In this document: positions 34,896-63,260 of the stretch, piece by piece
Numbering within the stretch: the stretch's first letter is position 1
How the letters are laid out: each line of letters begins with the position of its first letter
From: Vermamoeba vermiformis
Lineage: Eukaryota
Assembly (NCBI GenBank): GCA_045837725.1
Contig: JBEWZL010000205.1
Coordinates: 1-64,000 of the forward strand
Length of the DNA stretch: 64,000 nt
Direction: 5' to 3'
Notes under the pieces: generated by a model
Seen by the model: the letters and a program-made list of their open reading frames with translations, nothing else
Database searches by the model: none
What the model was told of the DNA's origin: nothing
Made by a program: the position numbers and the translations under genes

Positions 34896-37800
34896 TTACG
34901 AGTGTTCACTACTTTGCATATTACTTCTACTAGGCGGTTCTTGATTTTGTTTCGCCTCGATCAGTCGTTGTTTCAGTGAACGGATCTTGTACTTCTTTTT
35001 GGCCAGGATGTTCTTCAACCGTTCAATTTGATCGTCTTTTTGTTTAATCGTTTCTAACAGCTCAATAACGCTAATGAACACAACATTAGTACAAAACTAT
35101 TAGCTTCAATGAGATTATTACCTCTTATTCTCCGCAGGGTCGTCAAAGTCTGTCGAGGTATTGGTCTGCTTGCTGACAGTCGTCACGGTGTTCGTCGTGT
35201 TGATCTGCAAGTTGAATTCCATGTCACTTTGCTTGTTGCGATTCTTGTACACTTCTTTCGTCTTAGGAATGAACACTACGGCTAGCGTGATCGCTATTGG
35301 CACGATGGTCGCCAAAGCTGGTCCTAAGAACACCGCTGTTGGATTTGGATCGCCCTCGGTGATGATCAACATGATTGGGATCAATATGAGACCACACACC
35401 GCGAATGTGAAGACAGCCACTGACAATGCCGTGAAATCTGGCATGGCAGGCTTGACGTTCCAAATCATGAAGCACAAGAACACGGTGAACAGCAGTAGTA
35501 AGCCCTGGTAACGATTAGCTACCCGACTACTTGTTTAAGTAAATATGTACCTTGTAGCCGAAGAGCGAATAGAAGATGATGTAGTTGAATTTGCACGACT
35601 GCACCGTTGCCGCGGGATTTGCAAGCGATGGGTACGACTCGACAGTACTATTCCCAACGAGACTGAACACGATCAATACACCCTGAATACGCTTGTTAGC
35701 GCCGTGGTGAGTAGCATTAAGCTGTGCTTACGATATCCACGCAAATGAAAGCTACTAAAATGAACAGTAGCCATCGATCACTGAGCTGCCTTCGCTTCAA
35801 TGTTTTGTTGCAGAAGATACGCCAGATGCGATACGTCTTCACAAACATTGAGCTACAAATCACGTTAGTATGTTATTAAACCACAGCTCTTATTAACGTA
35901 CCCTATGATCAATGCAAATCCCAAGCTGAGCAACCATACGCGCAAGTGACAGAACGCCTCAGTGAGTGGTCCAGCGAAGAAGTACACCGAGGCCAGGCAC
36001 AACACGAAGCCAACCAACATGATTATCAACAGCATCGGGCTTGCAATTCTGAACTCCTGTAACGAGCAAGGTTAGAACTCACGCACTCAGGATAATGGGG
36101 TACACGTACCTGTTTGTCCTTGAGCACACCGACTACCACGATAAAGCCAATCGAGATAACGGCCAGCAAGATAGCAATGGCAAAGAACACGTAGAACAGC
36201 ACATCAGATACAATGTGCGCACCAGGCAAGCAATACACATTGAGCGTGATTATCGCTGCCGGTGATGTCAGCTCTTTGTCACTGACGTTGAAGGTAAACA
36301 CATCGAGGCCCATGCCACACGTGTCCTTTGGCGGCGTGTACCTAACGCGACCTTTGCTATTGGTCAACAGGCCAGGCGCGGTCATCTCATCGATATTGTT
36401 GTCTTTTTCATCCACTTGAGTCAGCCAGCCATTGGCGGGTAATGTGTTGATCAAATACGTCACTGTGTCTCCATCAATGTCCTCGTGCGTCAATTGAACC
36501 ACAACGGAAAAGCTTTCATTCAACGACACATTCTGAGCCAGTGCTAAGGGCATATTGTTTCGTGGGGTAATGATGACTGGTGAAAAGTGTTAATAAGGAC
36601 CGCTACGGTAGCGGGTTGCTTCGACTTACTTGTCCTGTTCACGGCCAATGACTCGCGATTGCGATCGAACGGGCAATCGATGGATTTGTACTGGAAAGTA
36701 TCGCCGTCTGTAGTGTACACGTGTGGATAAGGAACGTACAGCACGTAGCCTTCATCGTTAGTCAACACTCCTCGTCGAGGGTCAACACTGCCGATCAATT
36801 TCACACCAGCAATCTGAGCAGGACCAGGAGAGGTGCACGCATTCAACGTCATCCGAATGCGATTTGTAGGGAACAAAGGCTCGCAGATCGAAGGCGCCCA
36901 TATCGTGACTGAAGGAGCTTGAACTGTAGCTTGTCCTTGCCACAGCGTCTACAGAAATAATTAGCTCTCGTCCTAGCACTGGTTAGTTACTTACACTCCA
37001 TAAGCCACTGTCCAAGTTGAATGCTGAGAGCGAGGTGACCATTCCAGGATTCAAGTTCTCGCACACTTCGATGGAATACACGAAGACAGCCGTCTCGTAC
37101 TCCAAATCAATCCAGTCATCCGCAGTCTGATTGACACAAGGCCACTCAGGCGCCCACGAGTTGACGTTGTCACCGTATGGAGGGTTGGGCGAGTCGTACC
37201 AGCTGGGTCTTCCAATCAACTTAAAAGGACTATAACTCGAGTTCAAGTATTCACCATTGAACGAACTAAAGTTCAATACATTGGAGACCCATTGCTCGAT
37301 TGGATATCGCACGTCCCACGACAAGTACGGGTCACTAATTGGTTTGTCGAACAAGAACGTGCCATCCTCAGCTACTTGATACAATACTCCTTTCTAAACA
37401 CGAAGTTAGCTCATGGATAACAAACGAAGAATATCGTACCTGTGGCAAGGTTGTAATGACACGAGCAACTGACGAGAACAGTAGGGAACTAGCATCTAAG
37501 CGTAACAAGACCGGCTCGTCCTCGCGGGTAGTGTAAATGTTAAACGCAGGTCCATCTGAAACTACGTATGATGGCTGAAAGGCTGCAAAGCCACCTCCAA
37601 GAACGAACGCGTTTGTCATTGGATCGACAAGTGCGGTAGAATTCGTCGTCGTATTGAATGTCGCAAACATAGATCTTTTCACGGCACCCATCGTAACGTT
37701 TGTCGAATTTGAACTCCACAAAGTACGTATGCCTTGCTTCGTGACATCGGGTGTAGTCTCTCCGACGCCATTGTTGAAGTCCCAATAAGCAACCAACAGT

Positions 37801-40652
37801 GGATTCTAAAATGTGTTGGCAGGTGCGTCAATACTTCGTTACATATTGTACTTACATCCTCTGCAGTTCGCGAGCGCATTGAAGTTGCCACTTGGACAGG
37901 AACTTGCCATATTCTGACTTCATCCATTCGACCAGCAAAGTAGTTGTTGTACGTTTGATTTGCAGACCATCCAGCACCAAGAATCAGTTGCTTCGGTAAA
38001 AACAATAGACTTCCGAGGCTTTTAGTTGCCAATATCGAGCCGTTAGAATAGAGGGCAACTTCCGATGATATCGTCGCTGCTACGTGCGTCCAGTAGGTCG
38101 TTTGCATGTTTGGAATGACTTCGCAGAGTGTGTTCACCCCGAGTGTCAAGTTTGTCATGGACATGCACAAGCGGAACGTCGAGTTGTTGTAGCTTAGATA
38201 CAGCCTCAAGCACTCACTGCCATTGTCGCATACTCCGGCAATGACCGTCTATTCAGCATTAGACGGGACACACATATGGCCGTTTGTAGAAAGACGTACC
38301 TGCTGTGGATTTGTACTCGCTACCCGAATCCACGCGCTGACCGTACCAAGTGCAGTGATTTGAGTCAAGTTTGGCTTTGTGGCGGCGTAGTTGTTAATTC
38401 CATTGAACTCCAATGCCCACAGTCCACTGCCAGCTAGTGGTCGCTGGTCTGACAGCTCAACTGTAATGTAGACTTGCGACGAAGTGCCGCTCCAAGTGCT
38501 AGAGCCACGCAGTGCACACGAGAACGACAATGAATCCTGGAAGTTCCGTAAGTTTGATACAGGTGTGTAAGCCACCGAATTAATGGGACTGTTGACCAAA
38601 GTGTTCGGTGCCACTATTGGCAATGACTTGTTGATCTCTGTCGCATTAGGCAGCTAATTATTCGTGTTAGTAATCCAACACTGCTTATCTAAGACAGCAT
38701 AACTTACGTGATAGATAGCTCCACTCGTCGGCAAAGCTGTAATAACGGGCTGAAGATCATTGCCGTTGATGTCATAACAAATGAGATTGATAATTGTATC
38801 CGCTTGTTGATAAGCTTTCGCAGTCAGGGCTACGGACGAAGCAGGCTGATTAGCAACGATAACAATCGTGCCACTCGCCGAACCTAAGAATGTCAGAACA
38901 AATTCACAACCTTCCATAGCATTGTACGTACCGTAGTCTGTCATCACCAAGTAGTCGAAAGAATCATACTTGGCGTCCGGAAATATCAGCTGCACGGGGT
39001 CGAAGTATAATGCACTTGACATGATTGGCCCAACAGTTGGTATATAAATTCTGTTTCCTCCAATGTACTGGTAAATGTTGTTGCTGGGCATGCGAGTGAT
39101 GGTTATGTTAACACCAGGACCCATGAACTCGTCCAAATAAATGTAAGGCAGGAAGATATCCCGACCGCTATCAACGTCCACATAGAATACCGCGGACGTA
39201 TCCTCGATGACCACTGGTGCTGTTGAAGGTCCGATGACCGGTGACATCGTAGCTGACGCGTTCAAAGTGTATGTCTCGAATAAATCCCAGTGCCCAAATG
39301 AACCAGTGTTGAGGGAAAAGGCATCAAGTAGTTGATTAGTCGACGTACGATTTGAATCGAAATCGTAATAGGATATCAGTCCCGTTGAGTTCCAGGACGG
39401 TATTGGATAGTGCATCCACTCGCGTATTTCCGCGCCTGTTACACGGGATTGGTCAGTACTCGTGTGATTTTCAATAATTAGGACGTAAAGTAAATCATAG
39501 TACGGCTTACAACGATAGGAAATGCGGATTTTAAACAGTATTCAAAGTTCGGAAAATTAAATTTGCCTAAACAAGGTGTGATATCACATACGTGTTCTGA
39601 GGGTGCCCCACACGCGTAACTCATCGATCATGCCTTGAAACGAGTACTGTGCATCAAATCCACGGCCAGGATTGGTCTGCGCATGGTAACACTGTTAAGA
39701 CTGCACATCGCTTTAGTATAAAAATGAGTTCATACCTGTAACTGACCGAGGATTAACGTGCCGCCGCTCTCGAACAGATTCCCTTTCGAGGACTCAAAGA
39801 ACGCTGTGGCCCACAGTTCTCCATCAATGTAAAACTGAAAAATGCCTGATAGCCCTGACCATACAAGTGCGTAGTGATGCCATGAATGCACGTCACTAAG
39901 AGTTTTTTATGGTTAAAAAAAGTCTATCAGAAGAATCAAGTCTCAACACGGCGAAACGTCAGATGGGATCGCGGATCAATGGTGAATCACGCGACTTGCC
40001 AAATTTGTCTGTCTAATGCAAGATTTTACTTACCTGAGGCCGGGCAGTCCTTGGTTGACCGTTCCGATGCTTCCAGGATTGGCAAATAAAAAATCTTGAC
40101 CCATCCAGCGGATTCCTTGTTTACCAAGCCATGCAAACCTGAAATAAAGCAAAAAATATGTTTAATACGTGATTCATTTCGTGTAGCACTTTGCTGAACA
40201 CCAAATAAACGTGATTAATGTTTCGGCTAGATTAAGATCAGTTTTAAGAAATTACATTAAATGCCGATAAATTCAATATAACAATTAATTTTATTCGATA
40301 AAATTGTTACCGATGCTTTGAGCATCAAGAAAACGATAATAGGAGTTTCACGTAATTATTAAAAATTGCTAATTAAATCAAAAATTTGGTATAAAACATA
40401 CCTCAAACCCATGCCAGGTGTTGCATATGATATTGGTGTAAATAAGGGGCTGAATGAGCGTGATTTTAGCCAAAACTCGATCGTGAGCAAGGATGTATTT
40501 GAGGTTTGAAAATTCTCGAACGCAATATAATCACCTGGTCGATAAAAGACCAGACTTCCTCCTGCTCCTCCAACACCTAATTCTTCAGTTTGAGCGAGGC
40601 AAATTACGCCATATAATAATAATAAAAAGATCACAGATCGAGCCGCACGCAT
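34896..40652 (-). CDS. class C (GABA-B-like) 7TM receptor with large LamG/pentraxin and Ig-like ectodomain
   Basis: Signal peptide; LamG motifs (LILGQ..FQGMIDELRVW, WTHVAAT..FAGRMDEVRIW); Big/cadherin-like repeats (D.DGD.VTY.I..LP..G.L); 7TM CHLRVWLLSLGFALIIGSMFVKTYRIWRIF..FIPK; C-terminal coiled coil. Confidence 0.85.
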
Positions 40653-46809: not shown

Positions 46810-49357
46810 ATGAAACTGCTATTACTCGCGACTATTGCCTTACTGGCTTACCAAGCGCAAGCTGGTGCGTTTAAAAAGGATTCTATCATACTCTTGGGAA
46901 CTGAGGGATCCACTACCTCTCAGACATCTACCGTCGTATTGAAAGAGTACCGATATGATGGACTTCTCCTTCAAACAATTACTCTGGGTGGGTAAGTTAT
47001 CAATCCATCCGTTAACAAAGACTTAGTGATTTATTCCGATTCCAACGATACTCTTGATTTCCTCTCCGCATAATACTTAAATTATATATACAGTGTTAAT
47101 TGCCACCCTTTTGTAATTTGCATGCAATTATTAAATTGATTTAAAATTAAAAAGATTTTGTTTCTAAATCCGTCTTTTTTTAGGTACGTTTATTCAAAAC
47201 AAAACGTGCACAAAATTATGCTCGACTACGCGGGTAGTATGTTAGCTATTGGTGTCTTAGAAGGTGCTCCTGGCCTTGCCTCCACATCTGGAATGCCGCG
47301 AGTTGCATTGACCATGAACGCGAACGGCGCAATTGTGGATCGCACCAAGATCACCGATTTCAGCAATCAAGATGCCAACTTTTACTTCGCAGTGCATAAT
47401 GGACAAGATATATGGCTTGGATATGACGGCACAGTTGGATACACGACTCGTGGGGCGACATCATTGATTACTCCTAGCGTCTCCTCGAGAACCAACATTC
47501 AATACGTACAAATAGTCGGTAACACGTTCTTTACTTGCAAGGCGCAATCTGGCTTCGCCTTCTGGTCCATGCCCTCACCTCCGAAAGTTTACAGCGCCGA
47601 CTATCCTTACGGGTCCTCCGTTCCTTACACTGCAGTTACAGCTTTCTCTTCCACCATTTGGTACGGTGCAGGGGCAGGAAAAGTGGCAAAGATGGAGGCA
47701 AGTGCAAACGGTTTTACCGATATTTATGCAACTGGCGTTGATACTTTCTCTTCGCGTTCGGTCATCGCGAGGCAATTTGGCATCGTGGTCTATGTCTTCG
47801 TACTGACGACTGATGGTTGGATCTATCGCTACACTGATAGCGGCAGCGGATTTACTGAGAGAAGAGATATTATTTCTGGTGATGGTACTGCATCCGCGTA
47901 TCTCGCTTTCTCACCAAATCCGAGCTGCGATGACTCTGGCAAGAACCAAGACGAGACTGACATCGACTGCGGCGGCGCATTGTGCAATAAATGCGATGAT
48001 GGCAAGATCTGCGCGGTGAATGCTGATTGCTATAGCGACTACTGCAATCCTAACCAGAGATGCTGTACGTATCAAGAGAATGTACGGCTAATGCATAGTT
48101 ATTAACAATCTTGCATCTAACAGCTACTCCGAGTTGCTCTGACGGCTTCAAAAACCAAGTAGAGACTGATGTAGATTGTGGCGGTGGCACGTGTTCCAAG
48201 TGCGCCAATGCCAAGACTTGCAGCGCTCACACCGACTGTACAAGTGGCTTCTGTAATCCCAATACAAATAAGTGTGGTACGTACAAAGGAAATCGAAATT
48301 ATCACCTTCCTAATATGTCTCGTAGCCGCGCCAAGCTGCTCCGATACGTTCAAGAACGGAGACGAAACTGATACTGACTGTGGAGGCTCTTGCTCCAAGT
48401 GCAGCATTGGCAATACTTGCTCAATCAATGGTGACTGTGCGAGTAATAAATGCTCCGGCAACAAGTGCGGTAAGTTATAACTGACTCCAGTGTCCGACAT
48501 CAAGCTGATTGTACTTGTAGTGATCAGTTGTTCTGATGGAGTGAAGAATCAAGACGAGACTGACATTGATTGTGGCGGTGCGACGTGCTCGGCATGCGTT
48601 AATGGCAAGAGCTGCTTGCTTGGAAGTGACTGTACGAGCGAGTACTGCAATCCCGACAACAAATGCTGTAAGTACACTCAATGATACGACCCAAGCATGG
48701 TACTAACACTTGCTTCAGCGACTCCTTCGTGCTCGGACGGCTATTTGAACCAAGACGAGACGGACATTGATTGTGGTGGTTCCTGCAGCGACTGCGCGGT
48801 AGGACAAAATTGTTTATATGACACCGATTGCTTGAGCAAAAACTGCACAGACACCAAGTGCCGTACGTAATATTCTGCTATTGCCAAGAAATATCCTAAC
48901 TTCAAAATTCTTAGAATACAGTTGTGTTGATGGCGTACTAAACCAAGATGAATCCGATATCGATTGTGGTGGCAGTTGTGCAACTAAGTGCGCCCTCAAC
49001 CAAGTTTGCCATAGAGACAGCGATTGTCAAAGTGGGTTCTGTCCCAACGCATCGTGCAGTATGTGATATGACTTTATTTTGAGAATCAAATTCACTAATG
49101 ATTCATTAGTGAGCCCACCTGTTGCAGGTCCTGTTGCACCACCTGACAACTCACCAGTGCCCTCGCCAATAGCCTCTCCTTTTGCTGATTCCACTCCTGA
49201 TGATGGCTCTGCTCCTCAGATTGATGCTCCTCAATTTGGCAATCTACCAGTTGCAGTCCCCAAAACAAACACTCCAAGTCAAAGCATTGTGTCTGGTGCT
49301 TTCACTCTCAACAGTATGAGTTTCATGCTGATTGTGGTATTTGTATGCTATTTGTAA
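46810..49357 (+). CDS. secreted/GPI-anchored protein with six Cys-rich C.DG.KNQDETDIDCGG repeats
   Basis: Signal peptide, beta-rich N-domain, six repeats mostly one per exon, Pro/Ser stalk and hydrophobic tail. Confidence 0.85.
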
Positions 49358-51046: not shown

Positions 51047-53725
51047 TTACTGCTTTTTTGGCTTTTTGTTGGCCTTGTTCTTGCCAGATCTCTTTCTTTT
51101 CTTGGGACTAGCTCGAACAATAGCTTCAAGCTCAGTATAAATCTTGACTTCATACTGATCAACCAAGTCTAAGAACTGCTTCAAGCTGGTGATTCTCTCC
51201 CAAGTTGGATCTCTAGTTTCCCATTGCACTTGATAGTAGAGGTGGCCGTTTTTGTACATTTTGCCTGAAATAGACTGGGCTCTGTACTTGTCTGAGTAGA
51301 TGACTTCTTCTTCAGACATTGACTGCAAGTCTTCAAGGACTTCATCTGCAGAGTCAAGTTGCGATCCATCGTCATGGGAACCAATGGCATTTCTTGCATG
51401 AGCAGCAGCTGCATTGGATTGTTCAGTGGCTAGGTAATCTTCATTGAAGCGATTGATGAGAGTGTTAGCCTGGTTATTGACGTCAGCATCATTGTAGTAG
51501 CGCATCAAAGTGCCGACATCGTGGTTTTGAACATTGGCCAACATTTGAAGAAACTGTTGCTGAGAGCCAAGTCCAGCCATGTATTCGTCCAAGTAGGCCA
51601 AAGTGACAAGCAAGTGTCTCCAACGCAAAGAAGTCATGTGAGTGCCAGGAATAATCTTTGCACAGCACTTGGCTACAGCTCTGGTCATAGCAGAAGGATC
51701 TTGTGGGTTGCCATTTTGAAAGCCAAGCCAAAGAGCCAAAGGATCTTCATCAGTTTGAACCAAAAATGGTCTAACTTTCTCGAGAAAGAATTTGAAGAAT
51801 GGATTGCAGTCAGCAGGGAAAGGAATCTTCTTGACAAACTTTCTGAGCTTCTTTTCCTTGAAGTCTGGGCTAATGATGTAGCATTTCTTCTTGTTGCTGA
51901 ATTTGAAGTTGTCTCTGGTCATGTGAATGATCAGCTCTTGACGCTGGCCTCCAATTTTGAAGTGACAGAGCATTTGAATCCAAGACTGAATGTTGTAGCA
52001 GATGCGATGAGTGTCAGTGGCAGAAGCCAAGCCAATGGTGTCGTCCCAAGCTTGAATAGATTTGTTCAACTTGATGAAAGTTGTTGCATGAACTTCCTTT
52101 AACTGCTGAGCAGTGATAGCTTTGCCATCAGCAAGGAGTTGATCAAAACAGGGTCTATCTATTTGGCTGACTTGTTGCTGCTGTTTCATCAGTCTTCGAA
52201 AGTGACCAGCCTGTTGAGCAACAATCCAAAGTTCTCCTCCGAAAGGACGCAGGCACTCGACTTCTGCCAGCAACCACTCGCATACTTTTTGAGTGTACTT
52301 GGCTTTGTTGTTGGCAGTGTTGGGAGAGCCGGCACGGAAGCGACAGTACTAGTGGAAAGCGCGCATTCTCTTGGAGGACAAGAAGCAAAGCCACCCAGGA
52401 CAAGAGCCTTCATATTCCATGCAAAAGGTCCACAAGTTCTTCAAGTAAGTGGCAACACCAGTAACAACAGAGTAGAACTTGTTGTAGTTAATTTGGCGGT
52501 TTCTTGCCAAATTTACTGTTTCTCTCTTATGCTTTTGCTTGTAGTCATGCAGGACATTCCAAAAAAAGGAGAGAAGGAAGGGAAAATCAGCTTCAAATTG
52601 TTTGTGCTGCGCTTTGGTGAGCCATGCAAATCCTTTGCCTTCAAGCTCTGCAGGCCAGTCAAAAGTTGTGTATTCTGTAGGCCATCTCCCTTCTTTGAGC
52701 TTGCGTGTAGCATTTTGGGGATAAGAAGCTTTTGCCCAGTTAGGTCTTTGATCCACATTATTTGTTTTAAGAGACGAGGCTTGGAATTGAAGGTCTTGAA
52801 CAATCCCATAGTCATTCCCTTCATAGGTGTCTTCTAGGTCAATGCCAAGCTGAGACAAAGTAACCTCAGAGAAGTCAACAGGTTTGAAAGCAGGCTCCAG
52901 GTTGTTGCCATCTTTGTCTTTAAGGAAAAACCCAATTTGATGCAGGTAAGACTCCTTTTGTTTCATTGTCATGCCGCTGTCTTCATCTTCTTGTTTGTCT
53001 TGGTCTTCCTCTTCTTGTTCACCATCACTGGCATTGTCGGTGAGGTCAACTACTGTATGCTTGGTTCTTTCAGCTTCACTGTCCAAGTCCAAGTTACTTT
53101 GCATGCCAACAGCATTATCGTCTTCTTCATAGCTTTGTTCGTTAAAGTTGAGCGCTTGGCGAGTCAAGTACTCCTGGAATTCACTTTCATGCTCTCTGTC
53201 TATTGCTGGATCAAACAGATCAAAGCTAGTGAGGAACAAAGTAAGCAACTGAATGCAATACTAATTAGATTATCCTTTTACCTTTGATTACGGCTGCTTC
53301 CCTCCTCAATAATCTGGGTTTGATCGTTGTCGATCTCTTGTGCTTCGCCATTCAAAGCTTCTGTCAGCCTACATAAAGAATAAGGGCATTGTAAAGGGCT
53401 TTTCAAAGACGTACTGATTGCTGGACACAGCCACTGCAAGTTGAGCTCGATCCGACCTCAAAAAAGCTTTTGTAGGCTTGAAACTGCTGCGTTGTTTGAC
53501 CTCCAAGCTAACCGTGCAGCTCTGCAAAAGTTCTTCTAACAGGGGATTATTCTTTGCAAGAGCATAAGCAATTGACGACTGCACGCTTTGACCATTAGGA
53601 ACCACAATGTAAATCGTCGAATTGCGAGCGTTAAAGTAGACGTCGCACTCGTGGCCTTTTGTCTGCTCAAATGCCTGCTGTATTGAAGTTAAAAAAGGCA
53701 CTGTAACCTGAGACGTGGCGTTCAT
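51047..53725 (-). CDS. tyrosine recombinase with C-terminal chromodomain; two introns and one in-frame TAG at 52349-52351
   Basis: Catalytic-order motifs GGQRQE (R), KEKK (K), TSLRWRH (HxxR-like), LANVQNH (H) and LMRYYN (Y). C-terminal YRAQSISGKMYKNGHLYYQVQWETRDPTWERITSL fits the chromodomain pattern; basic NLS-like tail. Confidence 0.85.
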
Positions 53726-54596
53726 GTTGGAAGTGGATTGAAAATAAAAAAACAAAAGAAACGAACAAAATTCGACGCATAAAGTTAATAAAAAGAATAA
53801 ACGTGATAAAACGGCAAAAAGAAAATCAACGAGCAAAACGCACCTTTCCACGAAGCCTAGAGGTATATCCCCTTGCTATATCACGTTTATACTTGCGTGC
53901 AAGTCTTACCGTATTAGGGTAAAATTAGGCCCCCGATGTGCACTAGGGAATCCCCCAGGAGTGATCTCATTCATCCCGTTGCCGGGAGGGCTTACCCATC
54001 TTATGCATTCTAAGTCACTTTATTGGCTCCCCAGCATCAGAGATGAAACTATTACGGGACGTACAGCCTCATCTAGCCATGTGAAAGCCCTTTAAAAGAG
54101 CTTTTGATCAAGGCCCATCTCCATGTTCAAAGTTGCGTATTCACTGAGTATAGAGGGACTGAAAGGGTTAGGGTTAGGGCTTATGCTTCGCTTTTCAGGC
54201 CCCTGGATCTCTGACGAAATTTCACCGAAATTTCCGGGAGTTGTTCCATGCAGCGAGGGCCGAAGGCCCGAGCGCATTGCACCAAGTCCCATTACATTTG
54301 GTGATAGTGATGCAGAGATACAGGGGCTCGAAGTAGCTGCGGCGCCAGCGTCGTAATGCCGCAATGCCGCAGGCAAATCACCGTTCCTGACACTTTTCGG
54401 TTAATTCTAGCTCTGAGTCACGGACACTCACAGACCTCTCCTTTGCAGGGTAGTCTAGTCTATATTTTAGATGATTTATCATATAAAATTTATTAATATT
54501 GCTGAAAGTTCGAATTTTTCAAAAAATTATATACCCTATAGGGGTAGGGGTGGGTAGGTGGGGGGTTGCGTATTCTATTTTCATTCACATCAGCAT

Positions 54597-54808
54597 CAAA
54601 CAGGATGCACGATTATCGTGCACGCATGCGCATCAGACAGAGCGTACGATTATCGTGCACACATGCGTGCCAGACAGGGCGTACGATTATCGTGCACGCA
54701 TGCGCATCAGACAGAGCGTACGATTATCGTGCACGCATGCGTACCAGACAGGGCGTACGATTATCGTGCACACATGCACATCAGACAGGGCGTACGATTA
54801 TCGTGCAC
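54597..54808. repeat. six 37-bp tandem units, each with palindrome GYACGAT-T-ATCGTGC
   Basis: GATTATC recurs at 54611, 54648 and onward with 37-bp spacing. Unit: CAGACAGRGCGTACGATTATCGTGCACRCATGCGCAT. Confidence 0.95.
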
Positions 54809-54810
54809 AG

Positions 54811-55765
54811 GAGTGGGCACCTAGAATTCCATGAGTGGGCACCTGGGATTCCGGGCACCTAGAATTCCGGGCACTTAGAATTCTGGGCACCTGGGATTCC
54901 GGGCACCTAGGATTCTGTGACTGGGCACCTAGGATTCCGTGGGCACCTAGAATTCCGCGCACATGACTGGGCACCTAGGATTCCGTGGGCACCTAGGATT
55001 CCGGGCACCTAGAATTCTGTGAGTGGGCACCTGGGATTCCAGGCACCTAGAATTCCGTGAGTGGGCACCTGGGATTCCGGGCACCTAGGATTCCACGCAC
55101 ATGAGTGGGCACCTAGGATTCCGTGGGCACCTAAATTTCCGTGAGTGGGCACCTAGGATTCCGTGAGTGGGCACCTGGGATTCTGGGCACCTAGGATTCC
55201 GTGAGTGGGCACCTGGGATTCCGGGCACCTAGAATTCCGTGAGTGGGCACCTGGAATTCCATGAGTGGGCACCTGGGATTCCGGGCACCTAGAATTCCGT
55301 GAGTGGGCACCTAGGATTCCGTGAGTGGGCACCTGGGATTCCGGGCACCTAGGATTCCGTGAGTGGGCACCTGGGATTCCGGGCACCTAGGATTCCGCGT
55401 ACATGAGTGGGCACCTAGGATTCCGGGCACCTAGAATTCCGTGACTGGGCACCTAGGATTCCGTGACTGGGCACCTAGGATTCCGTGAGTGGGCACCTGG
55501 GATTCTGGGCACCTAGAATTCCGTGAGTGGGCACCTGGGATTCTGGGCACCTAGAATTCCGTGAGTGGGCACCTGGGATTCCGGGCACCTAGAATTCCGT
55601 GAGTGGGCACCTGGGATTCCGGGCACCTAGAATTCCGCGCACCTAGAATTCCGGGCACCTAGAATTCCGTGACTGGGCACCTAGGATTCCGGGCACCTAG
55701 GATTCCGTGAGTGGGCACCTGGGATTCCGGGCACCTAGAATTCCAGGCACATGACTGCACACCTA
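54811..55765. repeat. GC-rich minisatellite: 16-bp core GGGCACCTRGRATTCC with optional GTGAGT (16/22-bp units, often 38-bp dimers)
   Basis: Directly visible array of about 950 bp, roughly 50 core copies. Confidence 0.95.
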
Positions 55766-56043
55766 AATTCAAACAGCCCTGCTGACTAAACTTTATGTGC
55801 CCACTAAATTCCTACATTTGTGTCACTCCCTGAACTTGCTTTTAAAACTCCTTTGCAAAAAATGGCTACCAAACATTAGTATCTAATTTTTAACATGAAA
55901 AAGTAGTGTAACTGAAATACCACTTAGGACACTGCTTTCCCTACCATGCTATCCTTGGACAATGTATGAGTGTGTCTGATATGATCAGACACACTAAGAA
56001 TTGAACTTGGATAGCTACAAAGTCATTACATTGTCCTGAAACT

Positions 56044-57608
56044 TTATTTATTTTTAGAGCCTAAGCGTACAGATGGGAATGAATTGTTCTTCATTTGCTG
56101 AACAAAACCCATGTCCTTATTCATTACAGTTTGTCGTTTTGCGTGAATAGCTGCAGCTTGAGACATCACAAATAGATCTGTGAGGAAATATTCAGAGGAC
56201 AATTGTAGAGCTTCAAGAGCAACTGCTTGCCAGCGAACACCTTCTAAGTCACTATCACGGGTTAGATCTTCAGTTACTTCACGGACAAGGCGCTGGAAAC
56301 CTCGACGTGACATCAGAAGTGTGGTGCTGTTTTGATAAAATTTGATTTCAGCCATGCCTATTAAAAATTATTAATAATGAACTAGTATAAATTTACTGAA
56401 CTTACGTCTACTTGCAAGGCTTTGATTCACGTTCTTCTTAGCCTTGAACACCTTGGGCTGCAAATGTTTTAATTACACACGTGTTTATGAAATTAGTTTA
56501 AATGATGATATAACTTACTCTTTTCGTTGGACGAGAGTTTGAATCTGCACCTGATGCCTTTCGTTTCTGTCCTCTCTGTAAGATAAGACTGTGAGATTAC
56601 TTATCAATTTACTAACAATATTACCTTCGGTTCATTCTCATTCTTATCGTCAACTACTCGTTTTCTCTTCTTTGCCTTCTTGTTGGCGACGGTTTTGTTT
56701 GTTGCACCTCTCTGCAATAATGTTAGGTCATACTATTAATTAAATTACTTACCTTTGTCATGTACTCCTCTTCATCGACCTTGCCGACACTCTTTCTTTT
56801 CTTGTTTGGCTGTTTGGCAGGGGCTTGTTGCTTGGCAGTGTCCGCTTGTTTGCCACTCTCCGATCCTGATTGTCGTAGTTTGGCATTGCCGTCTTTGTTG
56901 CCTTCATCAGCAGCAACATTGGTGTCTTCAGCCTCACTGTCGCGTTTCTCGCCACCCCCTTCTTCTTCTTCAGCCTCACCATCGTCATTGTTACCGCGTT
57001 CTTTTTCGTGCTCGCTGTGTTCGCCTTCTTCTGGCGCTGCACCTTCAACGTTTTGGTTGTTTTGGGCTAATTCCTAAATAAAAATTAGCTATTGTTTGCT
57101 CATAGCCAATAAAACTGTACTGCATTAGCGTCGGTGATCTCAACAACTTCCTCGATCTCACCAGCCAAACGTGCTGATCGTCTGGGTGAATTACCAACAC
57201 CATCATCTTGGGTCGCACGAGCTTTGTGGCGAGCTTTAGCTCCAGGCCTATTTCGTCTTTTACCGGTCCTGATTGAAGTACATTATTAAACGTGTTTTAA
57301 TTATTAATTTCATCGAAAAAAAGCATCTTGGAAATTTGCCCCGTAAATAAAGATTAATGATTAAAATTACTTACTTTTGGCCTGATTTATTTGAAGATTT
57401 TTTTTTCGATTTATTCTTATTAGTAGACTGGGAATTAGACCTAATTATGCCGTTAATAATATTTAATTTTGACGATAAATATTTTATTCATAATTGTACA
57501 CTACGTACTTATTTCCAGAGGCCACCCGACCAGATCTGTTAACTATTGTAAATATCTAATAAACAAACTTATTATATGAGCTTACATTTCGTGTGGGGAA
57601 CGAGGCAT
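56044..57608 (-). CDS. divergent histone H3 variant, CenH3/CENP-A-like, ~360 aa, 9 exons
   Basis: Histone fold AEIKFYQNSTTLLMSRRGFQRLVREV..RWQAVALEALQ..AIHAKRQTVMNKDM. Eight GT-AG introns join an open frame from MPRSPHEI at 57608. Confidence 0.88.
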
Positions 57609-58685: not shown

Positions 58686-60213
58686 TTATTTAAAAATATT
58701 ATCAATTTTCTTTTCTAAAAAATACAACTTTCTTGCTCGGCCTCCAGCTCGACGTGCTCCTCTCTGTGCAGAAGAACGCCCCGATGTACCTTTGGGCTGG
58801 TGGTTTGACGGCTCGATCTCTGGCAATGGCAGGCTTAGGAGGCTGGCCTTCGTACGGTCTCGAAGTCTAATGCTCTGCGTTGTCATTAGACATTATTAGA
58901 TATAATTATATTATTATTTATATCTCGATTAGACATTATTATTTTATTTTAAACTTACCTCTTTTTGCGGCGATCCTAGCGTGATCTTTTTATCCGCCTC
59001 ACCCCACCACATGTACGGTCCAACACCAAGACCATGAGCCCCAAAGCCTGTCGTCTGCGTTGATTCTTTGTGCCAACTTGCTGGCATCTCGGATAATTCC
59101 TCTTCTTTAAGATCGGGCACAAAAATCGTTGCCTGAGACTTCGTTATTTTCATTTCTCGTGCACCGGCCTTCGTCAGCCCTGCTGTCAATCGCGCTACCG
59201 GCACTCGATGCTCTGGGTCCAAATTAACAGAGCTCGCTCGGTAGACTTTGATGAAAATGGCCCTGAACGAGAGCCATTCCCGCTCATCAAACTCGGTTGG
59301 CGGCACGTATGGTCTATTGGCCATATAGCCAATCATGAAGTCGAAGTACGCTTGAACCAAGGCAACGAACTGCTGCAAGTAACCGCGCACTATCATTGCG
59401 TCATAGAAATTTGCCCAAGGCCGAATGCCTAATTATGTAGTTAATAAATTGGCTATTATCCGTTAGTAGCCAGTATTTACCTGTATATTTGTACCACCAA
59501 AAGCAAATTTCGTTTGAAGAATACGCACCGACACCGTTGAACATCGATTGGTTCAATAAACAGTCGATGATCGTTGCCCTCTAGTAAAATATTAGTATTA
59601 GTCGTACTGATTTGTTATTGTACTAACCTTGAAATATTTTTGGTAGGCATCATCGTTTAACAGCGCCAGCAAGTGTTCGTGCAAGTCGCCGGCAAGTACA
59701 TCCGGGCCCCTGGCTGGATCCATCGCTAAACTTGCATCAGGATGCCATTTGAATGACACCTGATTTTGTTTGGTGTGGCAATCTAATATATAGATTGCCG
59801 CACCATTGTCGGCATTTAGCGCTATGTTTCGCCGATAGTCTAATGGGCTCGTGTCGCGATCTGATATCGCACCAACGTGAAATGCTGCGCCGGTGCCCAT
59901 GCCAAAGGTCATCGCGTAATTATTAAAAATTAACGCAATTTCCTTGCCTCGTGATACTACCTACGTAAATAATAATTAATTATAACCTAATTTTAAATCA
60001 AAACTTACATCCGTAACCGTCAGCGGTAGGCACGCGCGCATTGCCTCGATCTCCGCGCTGTACTTGTTGTGAGGCACGCGCTTCTCCACTTCTACAATCC
60101 TTAAGCCAATTGCTATAAATAAAGATTAATACAGATTAAATTTTATTTTATTTGGAATTACCTTTTTCTTTGAGGTGCCTTGCGAAGCCCTCGATCTCTG
60201 TTTTTTCGGGCAT
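58686..60213 (-). CDS. Fpg/Nei-family DNA glycosylase/AP lyase (NEIL1-like)
   Basis: Spliced protein begins MPEKTEIE (Pro2-Glu3), then SRGKEI, FGMGTG, RGPDVL, H2TH IIDCLLNQSMFNGVGAYSSNEI, KVYR and a basic tail. Confidence 0.85.
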
Positions 60214-60274
60214 ACTATTAAACGGTAATCGATTAATTAACAATTAATAAATTACTTATTCAATTCGTTTAACG

Positions 60275-60703
60275 AAGCCAATCCGGATCATTTTGGCGAG
60301 TGCAACAACAGCTGCTGCCAGACACCAGCTTGATTTACGTCATAACGCCGCGGTTCATCTGGAACCAGCCGCGCTTGATTTCATCAAGCTGTGTGCGGCA
60401 TCAAGCTGCATTGAAGCCGGATTAACCGTTGCTTCGATTGAGTCAGATGCGGTTCAACGGGAACCAGCAAAACGACAAAACCATCGCCAAAGCTGAGGTC
60501 ACTCTTAATAGATTTTTGGAATTGGCTTCGCAAATAACAAAGCCAATCCGGATCATTTTGGCGAGTGCAACAACAGCTGCTGCCAGACACCAGCTTGATT
60601 TACGTCATAACGCCGCGGTTCATCTGGAACCAGCCGCGCTTGATTTCATCATGCTGTGTGCGGCATCAAGCTGCATCGAAGCCAGATTAACCGTTGCTTC
60701 GAT
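60275..60703. repeat. 164-bp direct duplication (60275-60438 / 60540-60703)
   Basis: Three mismatches seen; offset 265 bp. Confidence 0.92.
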
Positions 60704-61246
60704 CGGATCAAGTGTGCGGTTTAACGTAAACCAGCGCCACAGTAATCCATGCATGCCCTTGATGACCTCGCAGCGTAGTGTCGTATTTGATTACGAGTAA
60801 ATTCCTAGTCAAGCCAGCACATCTCGAAAGTAATTTAAAAATTATACTAAAAAAATTTAAAATATTATTAAACGATAATATTTGTTTTTGTTGCTTACGT
60901 TTTATTTTTCTTGATGCCAAGCTCAGACAAACTTCATTGGACTGAGATCGGGGTCCCGAAACCTTATGACAGGGCCGATCGACTATTTAAAAAACAGAAG
61001 TAGTAGTTAGAGGCTTTATTCTCGATATTGTTAGTACTTACCTGCGCGTGGTGTGTTGATATTGCGGTTTAAACAGTTAAATGACGTGTTTCGAAATTTA
61101 CCAAAAAAAGTTAGCCAAAAAAATTTGGGCCAAAAAAAGTTAGCCAAAAAATTCGTCCCAAAAAAAATTGCGGAAACCAATTTTGCGCGTTTGTCTTCTA
61201 TCCGCACAGATGCGCAGCAACACAACTCAGCTAAAGGTCGTAATAG

Positions 61247-61888
61247 GTAAGTGTTCTTTATTGTTTTATTATTTATATTGTATTAATTTCTTTAGCTATC
61301 TTTACTAATTAATTTTCGTAGATTTTAATGCGCGCATCGGCTTAACCACGAGCAAAACCGCGTCAAGCCCCCACGCGCTTGGATGACCGCAGTGATGGTA
61401 AGTGTTATTTAATTCTCGCGTGAGAATACTAATTAATTTTATTTGTATTAGATTTTACAACGCATTGAAATTACCTGTGAGCGAGTCCGTGAAAAGCCCT
61501 CCGCGCTTTAATGATGAACAGTAACGCAGTATTGATGGTAAGTTAATTATTTAATCTAGCGCGAGAATACTAATTAATTTTGTTTGTATTAGATTTTACA
61601 ACGCGCATTGAAATTACCTGTGAGCGATTCGTGAAGAGCCCTTCGTGCTTTGATGAATGAACAGTAACGCAGTATTGATGGTAAGTATAATTATTTAATT
61701 CTCGCGTGAGAATACTAATTAATTTTGTTTGTATTAGATTTTACAACGCGCATTGAAATTACCTGTGAGCGAGTCCGTGAAAAGCCCTCCCGCGCTTTAA
61801 TGAATAAACAGTAACGCAGTATTGATGGTAAGTTAATTATTTAGTTAATTAGTTAAGCTCGCGCTAGAATACTAATTAATTTTTACAG
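61247..61888 (+). repeat. tandemly repeated intron+exon units (~140-150 bp), apparently non-coding
   Basis: GTAAGT donors at 61247, 61398, 61538, 61681 and 61828; ACTAAT branch-like sites and TAG/CAG acceptors; similar exons of about 76-90 nt containing stop codons. Confidence 0.75.
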
Positions 61889-61929: not shown

Positions 61930-63260
61930 GCAAGCCCGCACCGAGCTCTCTTTTGGCTCATCCTCTGCACTTCTTGTGCAGCATATGTGAACTATTCATG
62001 ATGGCTACTCGCGTCTTGTTTCGCTAGAACTGCGATTTCCGTGCTCTAGATTTGGTCACTGGCGCATCCGTACCGAGCCTTCCCTGCCTTGGCTCACCCT
62101 CTGCGCTTCTTCACAAGGGTCTGCGGTGTATCGACGAACTATTCACGGTGACTACACGCGACCTGGGTCGTTGGAGACAGTGCAACACGATCTCCCGCGC
62201 ATCGGATTTCTCGCTAGCGAATCCGCACCGAGCCCTCCCTGCCTTGGCTCACCCTCTGTGCTTCATCATAAGGGTGTGCGGTGTGTCGACGAACTATTCA
62301 TGGTGACTACACGCGTCCTGAGTTGTTGGAGACAGCGCAACACGATCTCCCGCGCAGCAGATTTGGCAGTAGCGAATCCGTACCGAGCCTTCCCTTGCCT
62401 TGGCTCACCTCTGCGCTTCTTCACAAGGGTCTGCAGTGTGTCGACGAACTATTCATGGTGACTACACGCGTCCTGAGTTGTTGGAGACTGTGCAACACGA
62501 TCTCCCGCACAGCAGATTTGGCAGTAGCGAATCCGTACCGAACCTTCCCTTGCCTTGGCTCACCCTCTGTGCTTCATCACATGGGTGTGCAGTGTGTCGA
62601 CGAACTATTCATGGTGACCACACGTGTCCTGAGTTGTTGGAGACTGTGCAACACGATCTCCCACGCATCGGATTTGGCAGTGGCGAATCCGTACCGAGCC
62701 TTCCCTTGCCTTGGCTCACCCTCTGTGCTTCATCACAAGGGTGTGCGGTGTGTCGACGAACTATTCATGGTGACTACACGCGTCCTGAGTTGTTGGAGAC
62801 AGCGCAACACGATCTCCCGCGCAGCAGATTTGGCAGTAGCGAATCCGTACCGAACCTTCCCTGCCTTGGCTCACCCCCTGCTCTTCTTCGCAGGGTCTGC
62901 AGCGTGTTTACGAACTATTCGCGAAGGCTGTATGCGTTTTGGGGTCGCCGAAGTTCGAAGTAATGCGATCTCCTGTGGTTGGATTTAATCTCGAGCTAAT
63001 CTGCACTGCGCTCTCTTCTGTCTTGGCTCACCCTCTGCTTTAATGCCCGGCATCTGTACGTTCGTGGTGGTTAGGTGCGCGTTGCATCGCTGGGGACGAA
63101 GCAACACGATCTCCCACGCAGCAGATTTGTCACGAGCGAATCTGCACCGAGCCCTCCTTTGTCTTTGGCTTACCCTCCGCACTTCGTCGCAGGGTCTGCA
63201 GCGCCTTTACGAATTATTCATGGTAGACACACTGGATACTCGCAACACAATCGAGCACAT
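61930..63260. repeat. tandem array of 155/156-bp units (about 9 copies, degenerate at edges)
   Basis: TTGGCTCACC recurs at 62089, 62244, 62400, 62555, 62711, 62866 and 63023. Confidence 0.95.

What the first reader, a model, noticed from the sequence alone, without database searches (positions are those of the whole stretch)
58686..60213. Intron-split Fpg/Nei (NEIL1-like) DNA glycosylase in the accessory block
Seen: the ORF track shows only fragments, but splicing gives MPE at the N-terminus, RGK, GM, GPD and an H2TH motif in which the usual GNY reads GAY; no C4 zinc finger is evident. Known: Pro2, Glu3 and the Lys are the Fpg/Nei catalytic residues, and NEIL1 and mimivirus Nei1 are zincless. 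Inference: a divergent glycosylase as element cargo might remove modified bases, nick DNA or have altered specificity.
Basis: partly seen in the sequence, partly recalled or inferred. Interest (0 to 1): 0.75.

Follow-up and report, generated by a model that had tools for sequence, protein, structure and literature searches.

The report
Very divergent zincless Fpg/Nei glycosylase gene
This is a real six-exon gene for a very unusual relative of the Fpg/Nei DNA-repair glycosylases, one that standard domain models miss, and it sits among ordinary chromosomal genes with no sign of being mobile-element cargo.

Summary
On the minus strand, 60213..58686 splices through five short AT-rich GT-AG introns into one 415-aa frame. 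It starts Met-Pro-Glu and carries Lys58, an FGMGTG motif, an RGPD motif and an H2TH-like motif with Ala in place of the usual Asn. There is no Cys after residue 189.

Homology to Fpg/Nei is real but remote.
- Pfam finds nothing in 0 of 5 exon translations. Equal-sized pieces of canonical members hit in 6 of 6.
- A home-made Fpg/Nei profile scores the spliced protein at 20-26 bits; the best of 4000 shuffles scores 4.7.
- hhalign gives 95.6-96.6% probability over residues 1-203.
- Foldseek on an AlphaFold model of exon 3 returns only MutM/Fpg chains in its top 25.
- Exon 4 alone finds only NEIL1 in the PDB, weakly.

Only 11 relatives exist among 1.84 billion representative proteins, and they share intron positions. 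The C-terminal half is unassigned. Nothing in the window marks the gene as element cargo: it is single copy, has host-like composition, and lies 1.6-2.3 kb from an H3-like (probably CenH3) histone gene. Verdict: a new, strongly derived branch of a known enzyme superfamily, with activity unproven.

The parts
60162..60213 (-). Exon 1: ATG plus 17 codons and 1 base. Encodes Met-Pro-Glu...Glu6, the predicted catalytic N-terminus.
   Evidence: First ATG after an in-frame TAA at 60246-60244. GT donor at 60161. Adds 11.7 bits to the Fpg-profile score.
60113..60161 (-). Intron 1, 49 nt, GT..AG, 14% GC
60009..60112 (-). Exon 2, residues 18-52: first strands of the N-terminal domain
   Evidence: In frame with exons 1 and 3. 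Aligned to Fpg residues about 18-51 by HMM and hhalign. No relative covers it.
59961..60008 (-). Intron 2, 48 nt, GT..AG, 17% GC
59628..59960 (-). Exon 3, residues 53-163: Lys58 (SRGKE), FGMGTG, the family-invariant C113/N118/Q119 loop, RGPD, Y161-F162
   Evidence: 11 relatives. Invariant columns. AlphaFold pLDDT 72.4. Foldseek top 25 of 25 are MutM/Fpg.
59581..59627 (-). Intron 3, 47 nt, GT..AG. Same position in relatives.
   Evidence: Most relatives' ORFs run on past the Y-F-(K/E/N) motif into non-homologous read-through, usually starting with Val, and P0004 carries an 18-aa insertion exactly here.
59481..59580 (-). Exon 4, residues 164-197: H2TH-like motif with Ala182 in place of Asn
   Evidence: phmmer against the PDB: 10 of 10 hits are NEIL1 residues 160/161-183/184, E 1.5. 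Aligned to the Fpg H2TH by hhalign. Pfam H2TH not hit.
59429..59480 (-). Intron 4, 52 nt, GT..AG, 29% GC
   Evidence: P0004 has a 17-aa insertion close to this position.
58959..59428 (-). Exon 5, residues 197-353: end of the H2TH region, then a conserved C-terminal module of unknown fold (FRAIF..YR; LGVG..WWG; SP.K)
   Evidence: P0016 is 52% identical over 90% of the query. Aligned with P0004. No Pfam, NCBIfam or PDB match.
58875..58958 (-). Intron 5, 84 nt, GT..AG. Same position in P0004 and P0016.
   Evidence: Both relatives read through with Val after SP.K(E/K).
58686..58874 (-). Exon 6, residues 354-415 plus TAA: basic tail (15 K+R in the 63 residues 353-415). The least certain part of the model.
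   Evidence: Open frame and AG acceptor. Composition. No relative covers it. If intron 5 were retained the protein would end 5 residues after exon 5.

Best explanation
A single-copy chromosomal gene of a eukaryote with short AT-rich introns (fungus-like gene structure) encodes a 415-aa, zincless, very divergent member of the Fpg/Nei (H2TH) DNA-glycosylase superfamily.

Shown here:
- The six-exon frame.
- Significant profile and profile-profile similarity of residues 1-203 to Fpg/Nei.
- A predicted N-terminal beta-sandwich piece that matches MutM/Fpg structures.
- Pro2, Glu3 and Lys58 aligned with the catalytic Pro, Glu and Lys of E. coli Fpg.
- A small family (11 relatives) that shares intron positions.

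Inferred mechanism: after removal of Met1, the Pro2 amine attacks C1' of an everted damaged nucleotide, with Glu3 as the acid. This forms a Schiff base and then beta (or beta,delta) elimination, so the protein would be a bifunctional glycosylase/AP lyase like NEIL1, Nei and Fpg.

The canonical DNA-probing loop (Arg-x-Phe in Fpg) is replaced by a family-invariant Cys...Asn-Gln loop. The H2TH Asn is Ala or Glu. The C-terminal half is a family-specific module. Substrate range and DNA grip therefore probably differ from known members. I see no evidence that the gene is cargo of a mobile element.
For: - Gene model.
- Own Fpg/Nei HMM built from 79 sequences: 20.3 bits, E 2.3e-7 over 17 targets, collinear over residues 1-190 against profile positions 1-179. 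The best of 4000 shuffles scores 4.7 bits.
- Broader profile with 3 phage Fpg proteins added: 25.8 bits.
- hhalign of the family profile against the Fpg alignment: 95.6% probability, E 1.1e-8, 185 columns. Against the broader set: 96.6%, E 5.6e-10. Against Nei plus phage sequences only: 95.5%. Reversed control: 0.7%.
- AlphaFold model of exon 3 with 12 sequences: pLDDT 72.4. Foldseek against the PDB: the top 25 of 25 hits are MutM/Fpg, best E 6.9e-3, TM 0.42-0.49 normalised to the query.
- The low-confidence P0004 model also returns MutM as its top 8 of 8.
- Exon 4 (33 aa) against the PDB: 10 of 10 hits are the NEIL1 H2TH.
- Language-model neighbours of P0004 include NEIL1, giant-virus H2TH and phage Nei clusters; 8 of the 10 best named hits share one family or clan.
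- Lys58 is invariant in 5 of 5 sequences that cover it. C113, N118, Q119, G137, P138, Y161 and F162 are invariant in 12 of 12.
- Host context.
Against: - No curated model recognises the protein. Pfam hits 0 of 5 exon translations at E<=1. Five relatives, including the 344-aa P0004, give nothing better than PF01149 at E 0.25 for P0005. NCBIfam and PHROGs give nothing.
- Same-sized fragments of E. coli Nei, MutM and a phage Fpg hit Pfam in 6 of 6 cases, so fragmentation is not the excuse.
- phmmer of exon 3 against 1.84 billion representatives found no canonical Fpg/Nei.
- Sequence searches of the PDB with exon 3, P0004 and alignments A1 and A3 found none.
- No Foldseek E-value reached 0.001.
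- The C-terminal half alone gives 0.24% hhalign probability, so a zincless finger is not shown.
- The void-filling residues and the H2TH Asn are not conserved.
- Pro2 and Glu3 are seen only in this one sequence, because no relative's first exons could be retrieved.
- No transcript or activity data exist.
Confidence: 0.6

Rival explanations
1. A neofunctionalised, non-catalytic derivative. The Fpg/Nei scaffold is kept as a DNA, lesion or chromatin binder, and base excision is lost.
For: The canonical intercalating loop, the H2TH Asn and any finger Arg are not conserved. A large family-specific C-terminal module and a basic tail have been added. Sequence divergence is extreme.
Against: Pro2, Glu3, Glu6 and Lys58 are all retained in the window protein and aligned with the Fpg catalytic positions. 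Lys58 is invariant in 5 of 5 sequences. Inactive derivatives usually lose these residues first (general knowledge, not tested here).
Confidence: 0.2
2. It is simply the host's ordinary Fpg/Nei orthologue (NEIL1-type or plant/fungal-Fpg-type) that has evolved fast, doing standard oxidised-base repair.
For: Single copy in the window, host-like composition, conserved introns, core genes nearby. The H2TH piece is most like NEIL1.
Against: Canonical members, including distant phage ones, pass Pfam thresholds even as fragments: 6 of 6 hit. This protein does not. Only 11 relatives turned up in 1.84 billion representatives, and none is an annotated full-length Fpg/Nei. Whether the genome also has a canonical paralogue could not be checked.
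Confidence: 0.1
3. Cargo of a mobile element, for example one moved by the long recombinase-like, chromodomain-ended frame at 51047-53260.
For: That frame lies 5.4 kb away and ends in a chromodomain-like stretch: 5 of 5 PDB hits are chromodomains with best E 0.046, and Pfam Chromo gives E 0.16. The gene is surrounded by tandem arrays. The family is patchy and rare.
Against: No inverted or long direct repeats bracket the gene. An H3-like histone gene and another gene lie between it and that frame. There is one copy in the window. GC3 is host-like. The recombinase reading rests only on my reading of motifs; Pfam, NCBIfam and PHROGs gave no integrase hit.
Confidence: 0.07
4. Chance resemblance or a dead gene.
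For: No curated model hits it. No expression data exist.
Against: Six exons stay open through five canonical introns. The score is far above 4000 shuffles. Relatives at 34-54% identity keep the motifs and the intron positions.
Confidence: 0.03

Closest known systems
Human NEIL1 (endonuclease VIII-like 1; PDB 5ITQ, 6LWA and others)
   Same: Eukaryotic and zincless, with a Met-Pro-Glu start and the Lys near residue 54-58. The H2TH piece is the only thing in the PDB that exon 4 finds: 10 of 10 hits, NEIL1 residues 160/161-183/184 against window residues 167-190. A NEIL1 cluster is the best named neighbour by language-model features, score 0.91. Both have a long basic tail after the core (the NEIL1 tail is recalled, not tested).
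   Different: No Pfam Fapy_DNA_glyco, H2TH or Neil1-DNA_bind hit. G-N-Y is G-A-Y here. The DNA-probing loop is a Cys...Asn-Gln motif. The C-terminal 200 residues are unrelated by sequence.
Bacterial Fpg/MutM and E. coli Nei
   Same: Collinear over residues 1-203 (hhalign 95.5-96.6%). Pro2, Glu3, Glu6 and Lys58 align with Fpg P2, E3, E6 and K57. The exon-3 model superposes on the MutM N-terminal sandwich.
   Different: No C4 zinc finger. The Arg-x-Phe loop and the H2TH Asn are absent. About 145 extra residues. Identity is only 18-21% in the hhalign alignments.
Plant/fungal Fpg clade (e.g. Arabidopsis FPG, PDB 3TWL/3TWK/3TWM)
   Same: Eukaryotic and zincless (PMC3188539, passages read). Arabidopsis FPG appears among the Foldseek hits at ranks 23, 29 and 46.
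   Different: These are recognised by standard models and are said to be the only Fpg/Nei type in fungi (PMC13451438, passage read).
Giant-virus and phage Fpg/Nei
   Same: Catovirus and Tupanvirus Fpg are the top 2 BFVD Foldseek hits. Viral clusters appear among the language-model neighbours.
   Different: E is 0.12-0.13, weaker than for cellular MutM. The three phage proteins fetched pass Pfam. The gene has host-type introns and composition, so nothing points to a viral origin.

Membership tests
Fpg/Nei (H2TH) glycosylase superfamily | N-terminal Pro (after Met removal) as nucleophile, with an adjacent catalytic Glu | tested here: met
   Met-Pro-Glu at 60213-60205. It is the first ATG after an in-frame stop and is aligned to Fpg M1-P2-E3. 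It depends on the exon-1 model, and no relative covers it.
Fpg/Nei (H2TH) glycosylase superfamily | Conserved Lys at about position 52-57 on the strand after the first hairpin | tested here: met
   K58 aligned to Fpg K57. Invariant in 5 of 5 family sequences that cover it.
Fpg/Nei (H2TH) glycosylase superfamily | N-terminal beta-sandwich domain | tested here: met
   AlphaFold model of exon 3, pLDDT 72.4, six strands. Foldseek against the PDB: top 25 of 25 hits are MutM/Fpg, best E 6.9e-3, TM normalised to the query 0.42-0.49. Only part of the domain was modelled, and no E-value reached 0.001.
Fpg/Nei (H2TH) glycosylase superfamily | Helix-two-turn-helix motif with the G-N-(I/Y) turn | tested here: inconclusive
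   Aligned to the Fpg H2TH by HMM and hhalign and to the NEIL1 H2TH by phmmer at E 1.5. However, Pfam H2TH does not hit the 33-aa exon, while 3 of 3 control fragments of the same size do. The Asn is Ala here and Glu in P0004.
Fpg/Nei (H2TH) glycosylase superfamily | C-terminal beta-ribbon zinc finger or structurally equivalent zincless finger | tested here: inconclusive
   A zinc finger is excluded: there is no Cys after residue 189. A low-stringency hhalign lays the Y-R and T-K...F-V-P-D-L stretches over the finger but with zero confidence, and the C-terminal half alone scores 0.24%. The P0004 model shows strands there at pLDDT below 60.
Fpg/Nei (H2TH) glycosylase superfamily | Passes the curated Pfam models PF01149 and PF06831 | tested here: not met
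   0 of 5 exon translations hit. 0 of 5 relatives reach threshold; the best is PF01149 at E 0.25 and 12.4 bits against a cut-off of 25.5. The joined full-length protein could not be handed to the Pfam tool.
Fpg/Nei (H2TH) glycosylase superfamily | Glycosylase / AP-lyase activity with a Schiff-base intermediate | not testable with these tools
   Needs recombinant protein and substrate assays.
NEIL1 clade | Neil1-DNA_bind domain (PF09292) after the H2TH | tested here: not met
   No hit with exon 5 at E<=1 or with P0004 at E<=10.
NEIL1 clade | Placement inside the clade in a phylogeny with full-length sequences | not tested
Mobile-element cargo gene | Lies between element termini, or travels with a transposase or recombinase, in several copies | tested here: not met
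   No bracketing repeats and one copy in the window. Genome-wide copy number is not testable here.

The most novel reading that the evidence does not exclude
This gene is the first full-length view of an unrecognised eukaryotic branch of the Fpg/Nei superfamily. That branch may reach into large sets of unnamed Basidiomycota proteins. It keeps the Pro-Glu-Lys chemistry but has rebuilt the base-probing loop (invariant Cys...Asn-Gln), the H2TH turn and the whole C-terminal half. On this reading it works on something other than classical oxidised bases, for instance enzymatically modified bases of the host epigenome or of invading DNA.
Probability: 0.15. Interest if true: 0.7.

Novelty: new variant of a known kind. 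Interest (0 to 1): 0.42.

Why it matters
Fpg/Nei enzymes are treated as a well-charted family of nine clades (PMC3188539, passages read). A 2026 review states that fungi have only Fpg-like members and no NEIL homologues (PMC13451438, passage read).

This gene shows that eukaryotic genomes with fungus-like gene structure hold a further branch. That branch is invisible to Pfam and NCBIfam and is present in public protein sets only as exon-sized fragments. It keeps the catalytic N-terminus but changes the parts that touch DNA.

If the protein is active, it would widen the known sequence space of the H2TH glycosylases. It would also offer a natural experiment on which parts of the lesion-recognition apparatus are dispensable. 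If its substrate turned out to be a modified base and not a damaged one, it would connect this superfamily to epigenetic or defence functions. In practice, annotation pipelines are missing this family.

Tried and rejected
- **Pfam on single exons**, and NCBIfam and PHROGs on exons and P0004: nothing.
- **Word-index homologue searches.** Exon 5 'longer', exon 3 'longer' and exon 5 'near' gave none, none and one hit, P0016.
- **phmmer or hmmsearch of the PDB** with exon 3, P0004, A1 and A3: no Fpg/Nei.
- **Language-model search with exon 5:** uninformative, recognition 1553.
- **MAFFT alignments A2 and A5** misplaced the C-terminal fragments and were not used. A4 was used for the P0004 fold, which came out at mean pLDDT 47.8, too low to interpret beyond the N-terminal part.
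- **hhalign of the C-terminal half alone:** 0.24%.
- **Four of the 15 phmmer hits (P0011-P0014)** were set aside as long repeat proteins. Three were checked and are Ig-like, fascin and Bsp-repeat proteins. P0011 was not checked.
- **Tyrosine-recombinase reading of 51047-53260:** no support from Pfam, NCBIfam or PHROGs. Only the chromodomain-like end has weak support.
- **RNA genes:** no tRNA and no Rfam family in the window.
- **Literature:** four searches found no paper describing this family. The library holds only open-access papers and preprints.
The organisms and contigs of the relatives, and therefore their first exons, stayed unchecked.
  - The joined 415-aa protein could not be given to Pfam, the PDB search, AlphaFold or the big sequence libraries, so all full-length tests were done inside scripts against profiles I built.
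  - The identity of the source organism was not determined.
Full report
**What is there.**
The minus strand between 60213 and 58686 holds six exons: 60213..60162, 60112..60009, 59960..59628, 59580..59481, 59428..58959 and 58874..58686. Together they make a 1248-nt frame of 415 codons plus TAA.

All five introns begin GT and end AG. They are 47-84 nt long and 14-29% GC, against 49% GC for the coding sequence. The ATG at 60213 is the first after an in-frame TAA at 60246-60244.

The protein starts Met-Pro-Glu, with Glu6. It has Arg56-Gly57-Lys58, Phe71-Gly-Met-Gly-Thr-Gly76 and Arg136-Gly-Pro-Asp139. Its helix-two-turn-helix-like stretch (residues 171-190) has the turn Gly181-Ala182-Tyr183.

Cysteines occur only at positions 45, 113, 170 and 189, so a C4 zinc finger is impossible. 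The last 63 residues are basic, with 15 Lys+Arg. Exon 6 is the least secure part of the model, because no relative covers it.

**Curated models and ordinary searches do not recognise it.**
- Pfam found nothing in any of the 5 exon translations long enough to scan, at E<=1. The 17-residue exon 1 is too short for the tool.
- phmmer of exon 3 (111 aa) against 1.84 billion representative proteins gave 15 hits at E<=0.001. Eleven are true relatives: P0001-P0010 and P0015. Four are long repeat proteins. Three of those were checked and are unrelated; P0011 was not checked. No canonical Fpg/Nei protein was among the 15.
- Pfam on five relatives gave only PF01149 at E 0.25 for P0005, though in the correct register, profile positions 54-114.
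- NCBIfam and PHROGs gave nothing.
- Sequence searches of the PDB with exon 3, P0004 and two family alignments found no Fpg/Nei chain.
- Fragmentation is not the reason. Pieces of E. coli Nei, E. coli MutM and an actinophage Fpg, cut to the same sizes and positions as exons 3 and 4, hit Pfam in 6 of 6 cases at E<=0.001. The full proteins, plus two more phage Fpg proteins, hit strongly.

**Targeted tests do show homology.**
I built a profile from E. coli MutM and Nei and 77 proteobacterial MutM genes (79 sequences in all after dropping incomplete ones).
- The spliced protein scores 20.3 bits (E 2.3e-7 for 17 targets) in one collinear alignment of residues 1-190 to profile positions 1-179.
- Of 4000 shuffles, 2000 of which kept the MPE start, the best scored 4.7 bits.
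- Without exon 1 the score falls to 8.6 bits. Without exons 1 and 2 it falls to 6.2 bits.
- A less redundant profile with three phage Fpg proteins added gives 25.8 bits.
- hhalign of the family alignment against the Fpg alignment gives 95.6% probability, E 1.1e-8, 185 columns, residues 1-203 against Fpg 1-186.
- Against the broader set hhalign gives 96.6% and E 5.6e-10. Against Nei plus three phage proteins alone it gives 95.5%. The reversed family alignment gives 0.7%.
- In these alignments Pro2, Glu3, Glu6 and Lys58 fall on Fpg Pro2, Glu3, Glu6 and Lys57.

**Structure and language-model evidence agree, at modest strength.**
- AlphaFold on exon 3 with 12 sequences gave mean pLDDT 72.4 and six strands.
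- Foldseek of that model against the PDB returned MutM/Fpg for the top 25 of 25 hits, best E 6.9e-3, query-normalised TM 0.42-0.49. Nei, Arabidopsis FPG and NEIL3 came further down.
- The 344-aa relative P0004 folded poorly, mean pLDDT 47.8, yet its top 8 of 8 Foldseek hits were also MutM, at E 0.06-0.17.
- Against viral models the top two hits were giant-virus Fpg proteins at E 0.12-0.13, which is no closer than cellular ones.
- No Foldseek E-value reached 0.001.
- Exon 4 alone (33 aa) finds only NEIL1 in the PDB: 10 of 10 hits, E 1.5, NEIL1 residues 160/161-183/184.
- By protein-language-model features, the nearest clusters to P0004 are three unnamed Basidiomycota sets. The best scores 0.94, shares 177 of 256 features, and has 186 members with a 408-aa representative.
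- After those come a NEIL1 cluster (0.91), a giant-virus H2TH cluster and phage Nei clusters. Eight of the ten best named hits share a family or clan. These are leads, not alignments.

**Where it departs from the known family.**
- The loop that carries the intercalating Arg-x-Phe in Fpg is replaced here by Asp-Cys-His-x-x-Gln-Asn-Gln. Cys113, Asn118 and Gln119 are invariant in 12 of 12 sequences.
- The H2TH Asn is Ala here and Glu in P0004.
- Residues 204-353 form a module conserved in the three sequences that cover it. Its landmarks are Phe-Arg-Ala-Ile-Phe...Tyr-Arg, Leu-Gly-Val-Gly...Trp-Trp-Gly and Ser-Pro-x-Lys. It matches nothing in Pfam or the PDB.
- On its own this module gives 0.24% hhalign probability against the Fpg C-terminus.
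- A low-stringency alignment lays it collinearly over the zinc-finger region, with non-Cys residues at all four Cys positions, but with no statistical support. 'Zincless' is therefore shown. 'Zincless finger' is not.

**The family and its inheritance.**
- The relatives are 34-54% identical to the window protein and fall into about three subgroups.
- All but one are exon-sized ORFs. Most run past the Tyr-Phe-(Lys/Glu/Asn) end of exon 3 into non-homologous read-through, usually starting with Val, which is what reading on into a GT donor gives.
- P0004 carries an 18-residue insertion exactly at intron 3 and a 17-residue insertion close to intron 4. P0004 and P0016 both read through at intron 5.
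- Shared intron positions point to vertical descent within a eukaryotic lineage.
- No annotated full-length member was found.
- The organisms of the relatives could not be looked up.

**Context: no sign of an element.**
- The window is ordinary eukaryotic chromosome. It holds Mpp10, a FAD oxidoreductase, a RING protein, a class-C GPCR piece, a GH65 hydrolase, a TRM8-type methyltransferase, a PPR protein, F-box/LRR and BTB proteins, and pogo/Tc5 transposase remnants at the far end.
- About 1.6-2.3 kb from the glycosylase gene's 3' end lies an H3-like histone-fold gene, probably CenH3 (Pfam Histone 1.8e-19). A convergent gene of unknown function ends 14 bp from the glycosylase stop codon.
- No inverted repeat or long direct repeat brackets the gene. 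Only tandem arrays are nearby.
- tblastn of the spliced protein finds no second copy in the window, and E. coli MutM and Nei find nothing else.
- GC3 is 0.52, within the 0.39-0.57 range of housekeeping exons in the window.
- The only element-like feature nearby is the long frame at 51047-53260. It is 5.4 kb away and separated from the gene by minisatellites and the histone gene.

**Comparison with what is known.**
The Fpg/Nei family is described as nine clades. The plant/fungal and metazoan NEIL1 clades are zincless (PMC3188539, passages read). The family is defined by the H2TH motif, a zinc or zincless finger, and an N-terminal beta-sandwich with a catalytic N-terminal amine and an acidic residue (PMC8307549, passage read). 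A 2026 review states that fungi have only Fpg-like members and lack NEIL homologues (PMC13451438, passage read).

Four literature searches turned up no description of a family like this one. A 2025 preprint on antiviral glycosylases was seen only in a search listing.

I file the gene as a member of the superfamily at the level of homology. It is not a member of NEIL1 or of any other described clade.

**Verdict.**
- The glycosylase interpretation is supported at the level of fold and catalytic residues.
- The 'cargo' interpretation is not supported.
- Activity and substrate are inferred, not shown.

Noticed in passing
window 51047-53260 (-): One 736-codon frame interrupted by a single stop. It ends in a chromodomain-like stretch: 5 of 5 PDB hits are chromodomains with best E 0.046, and Pfam Chromo gives E 0.16. 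By eye, the part before that has tyrosine-recombinase-like motifs, which would suggest a Crypton-like element. No profile library supported that reading.
   Followed up: partly
window 56044-56367 (-), possibly with 56723-57073 (-): Histone-fold ORF (Pfam Histone 1.8e-19). Its sequence reads like a divergent H3, probably the centromeric H3 variant. A charged ORF upstream could be its N-terminal tail exon.
   Followed up: partly
window 54551-55777: Dense GC-rich minisatellite block: 37-nt units, then interleaved 16/22/38-nt units (19-20 copies per family). It raises local GC to 52%.
   Followed up: no
window 60270-60710, 61393-61843, 62048-62920: Three tandem arrays directly upstream of the glycosylase gene: 265 nt x2 (96% identical), 145 nt x3.1, and 155 nt x5.6. 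The 145-nt unit contains a GTAAGT-like site, so it may be a gene with repeated exon-intron units.
   Followed up: no
window 47140-48615: ORFs with a Cys-rich coding repeat. Three copies of a 72-nt unit are 67-78% identical. No Pfam match.
   Followed up: no
window 190-1592 (-) and 1719-1869 / 2372-2522: Pogo/Tc5-type transposase remnants (HTH_Tnp_Tc5 and DDE_1, split over two frames). Beside them lies a 151-nt inverted repeat, 98% complementary, with arms 502 nt apart.
   Followed up: no
window 36026-39541 (-): A run of ORFs with bacterial-type Ig (Big_9), cadherin-like and Laminin_G_3 domains. This is an unusual domain set for a gene in a genome with fungus-like introns.
   Followed up: no
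P0004 (relative): By language-model features, the nearest clusters are large unnamed Basidiomycota protein sets (186, 77 and 64 members; representatives of 408-607 aa; no Pfam domain). These may be the wider home of this family. They were not reached by phmmer with exon 3 and could not be fetched.
   Followed up: no
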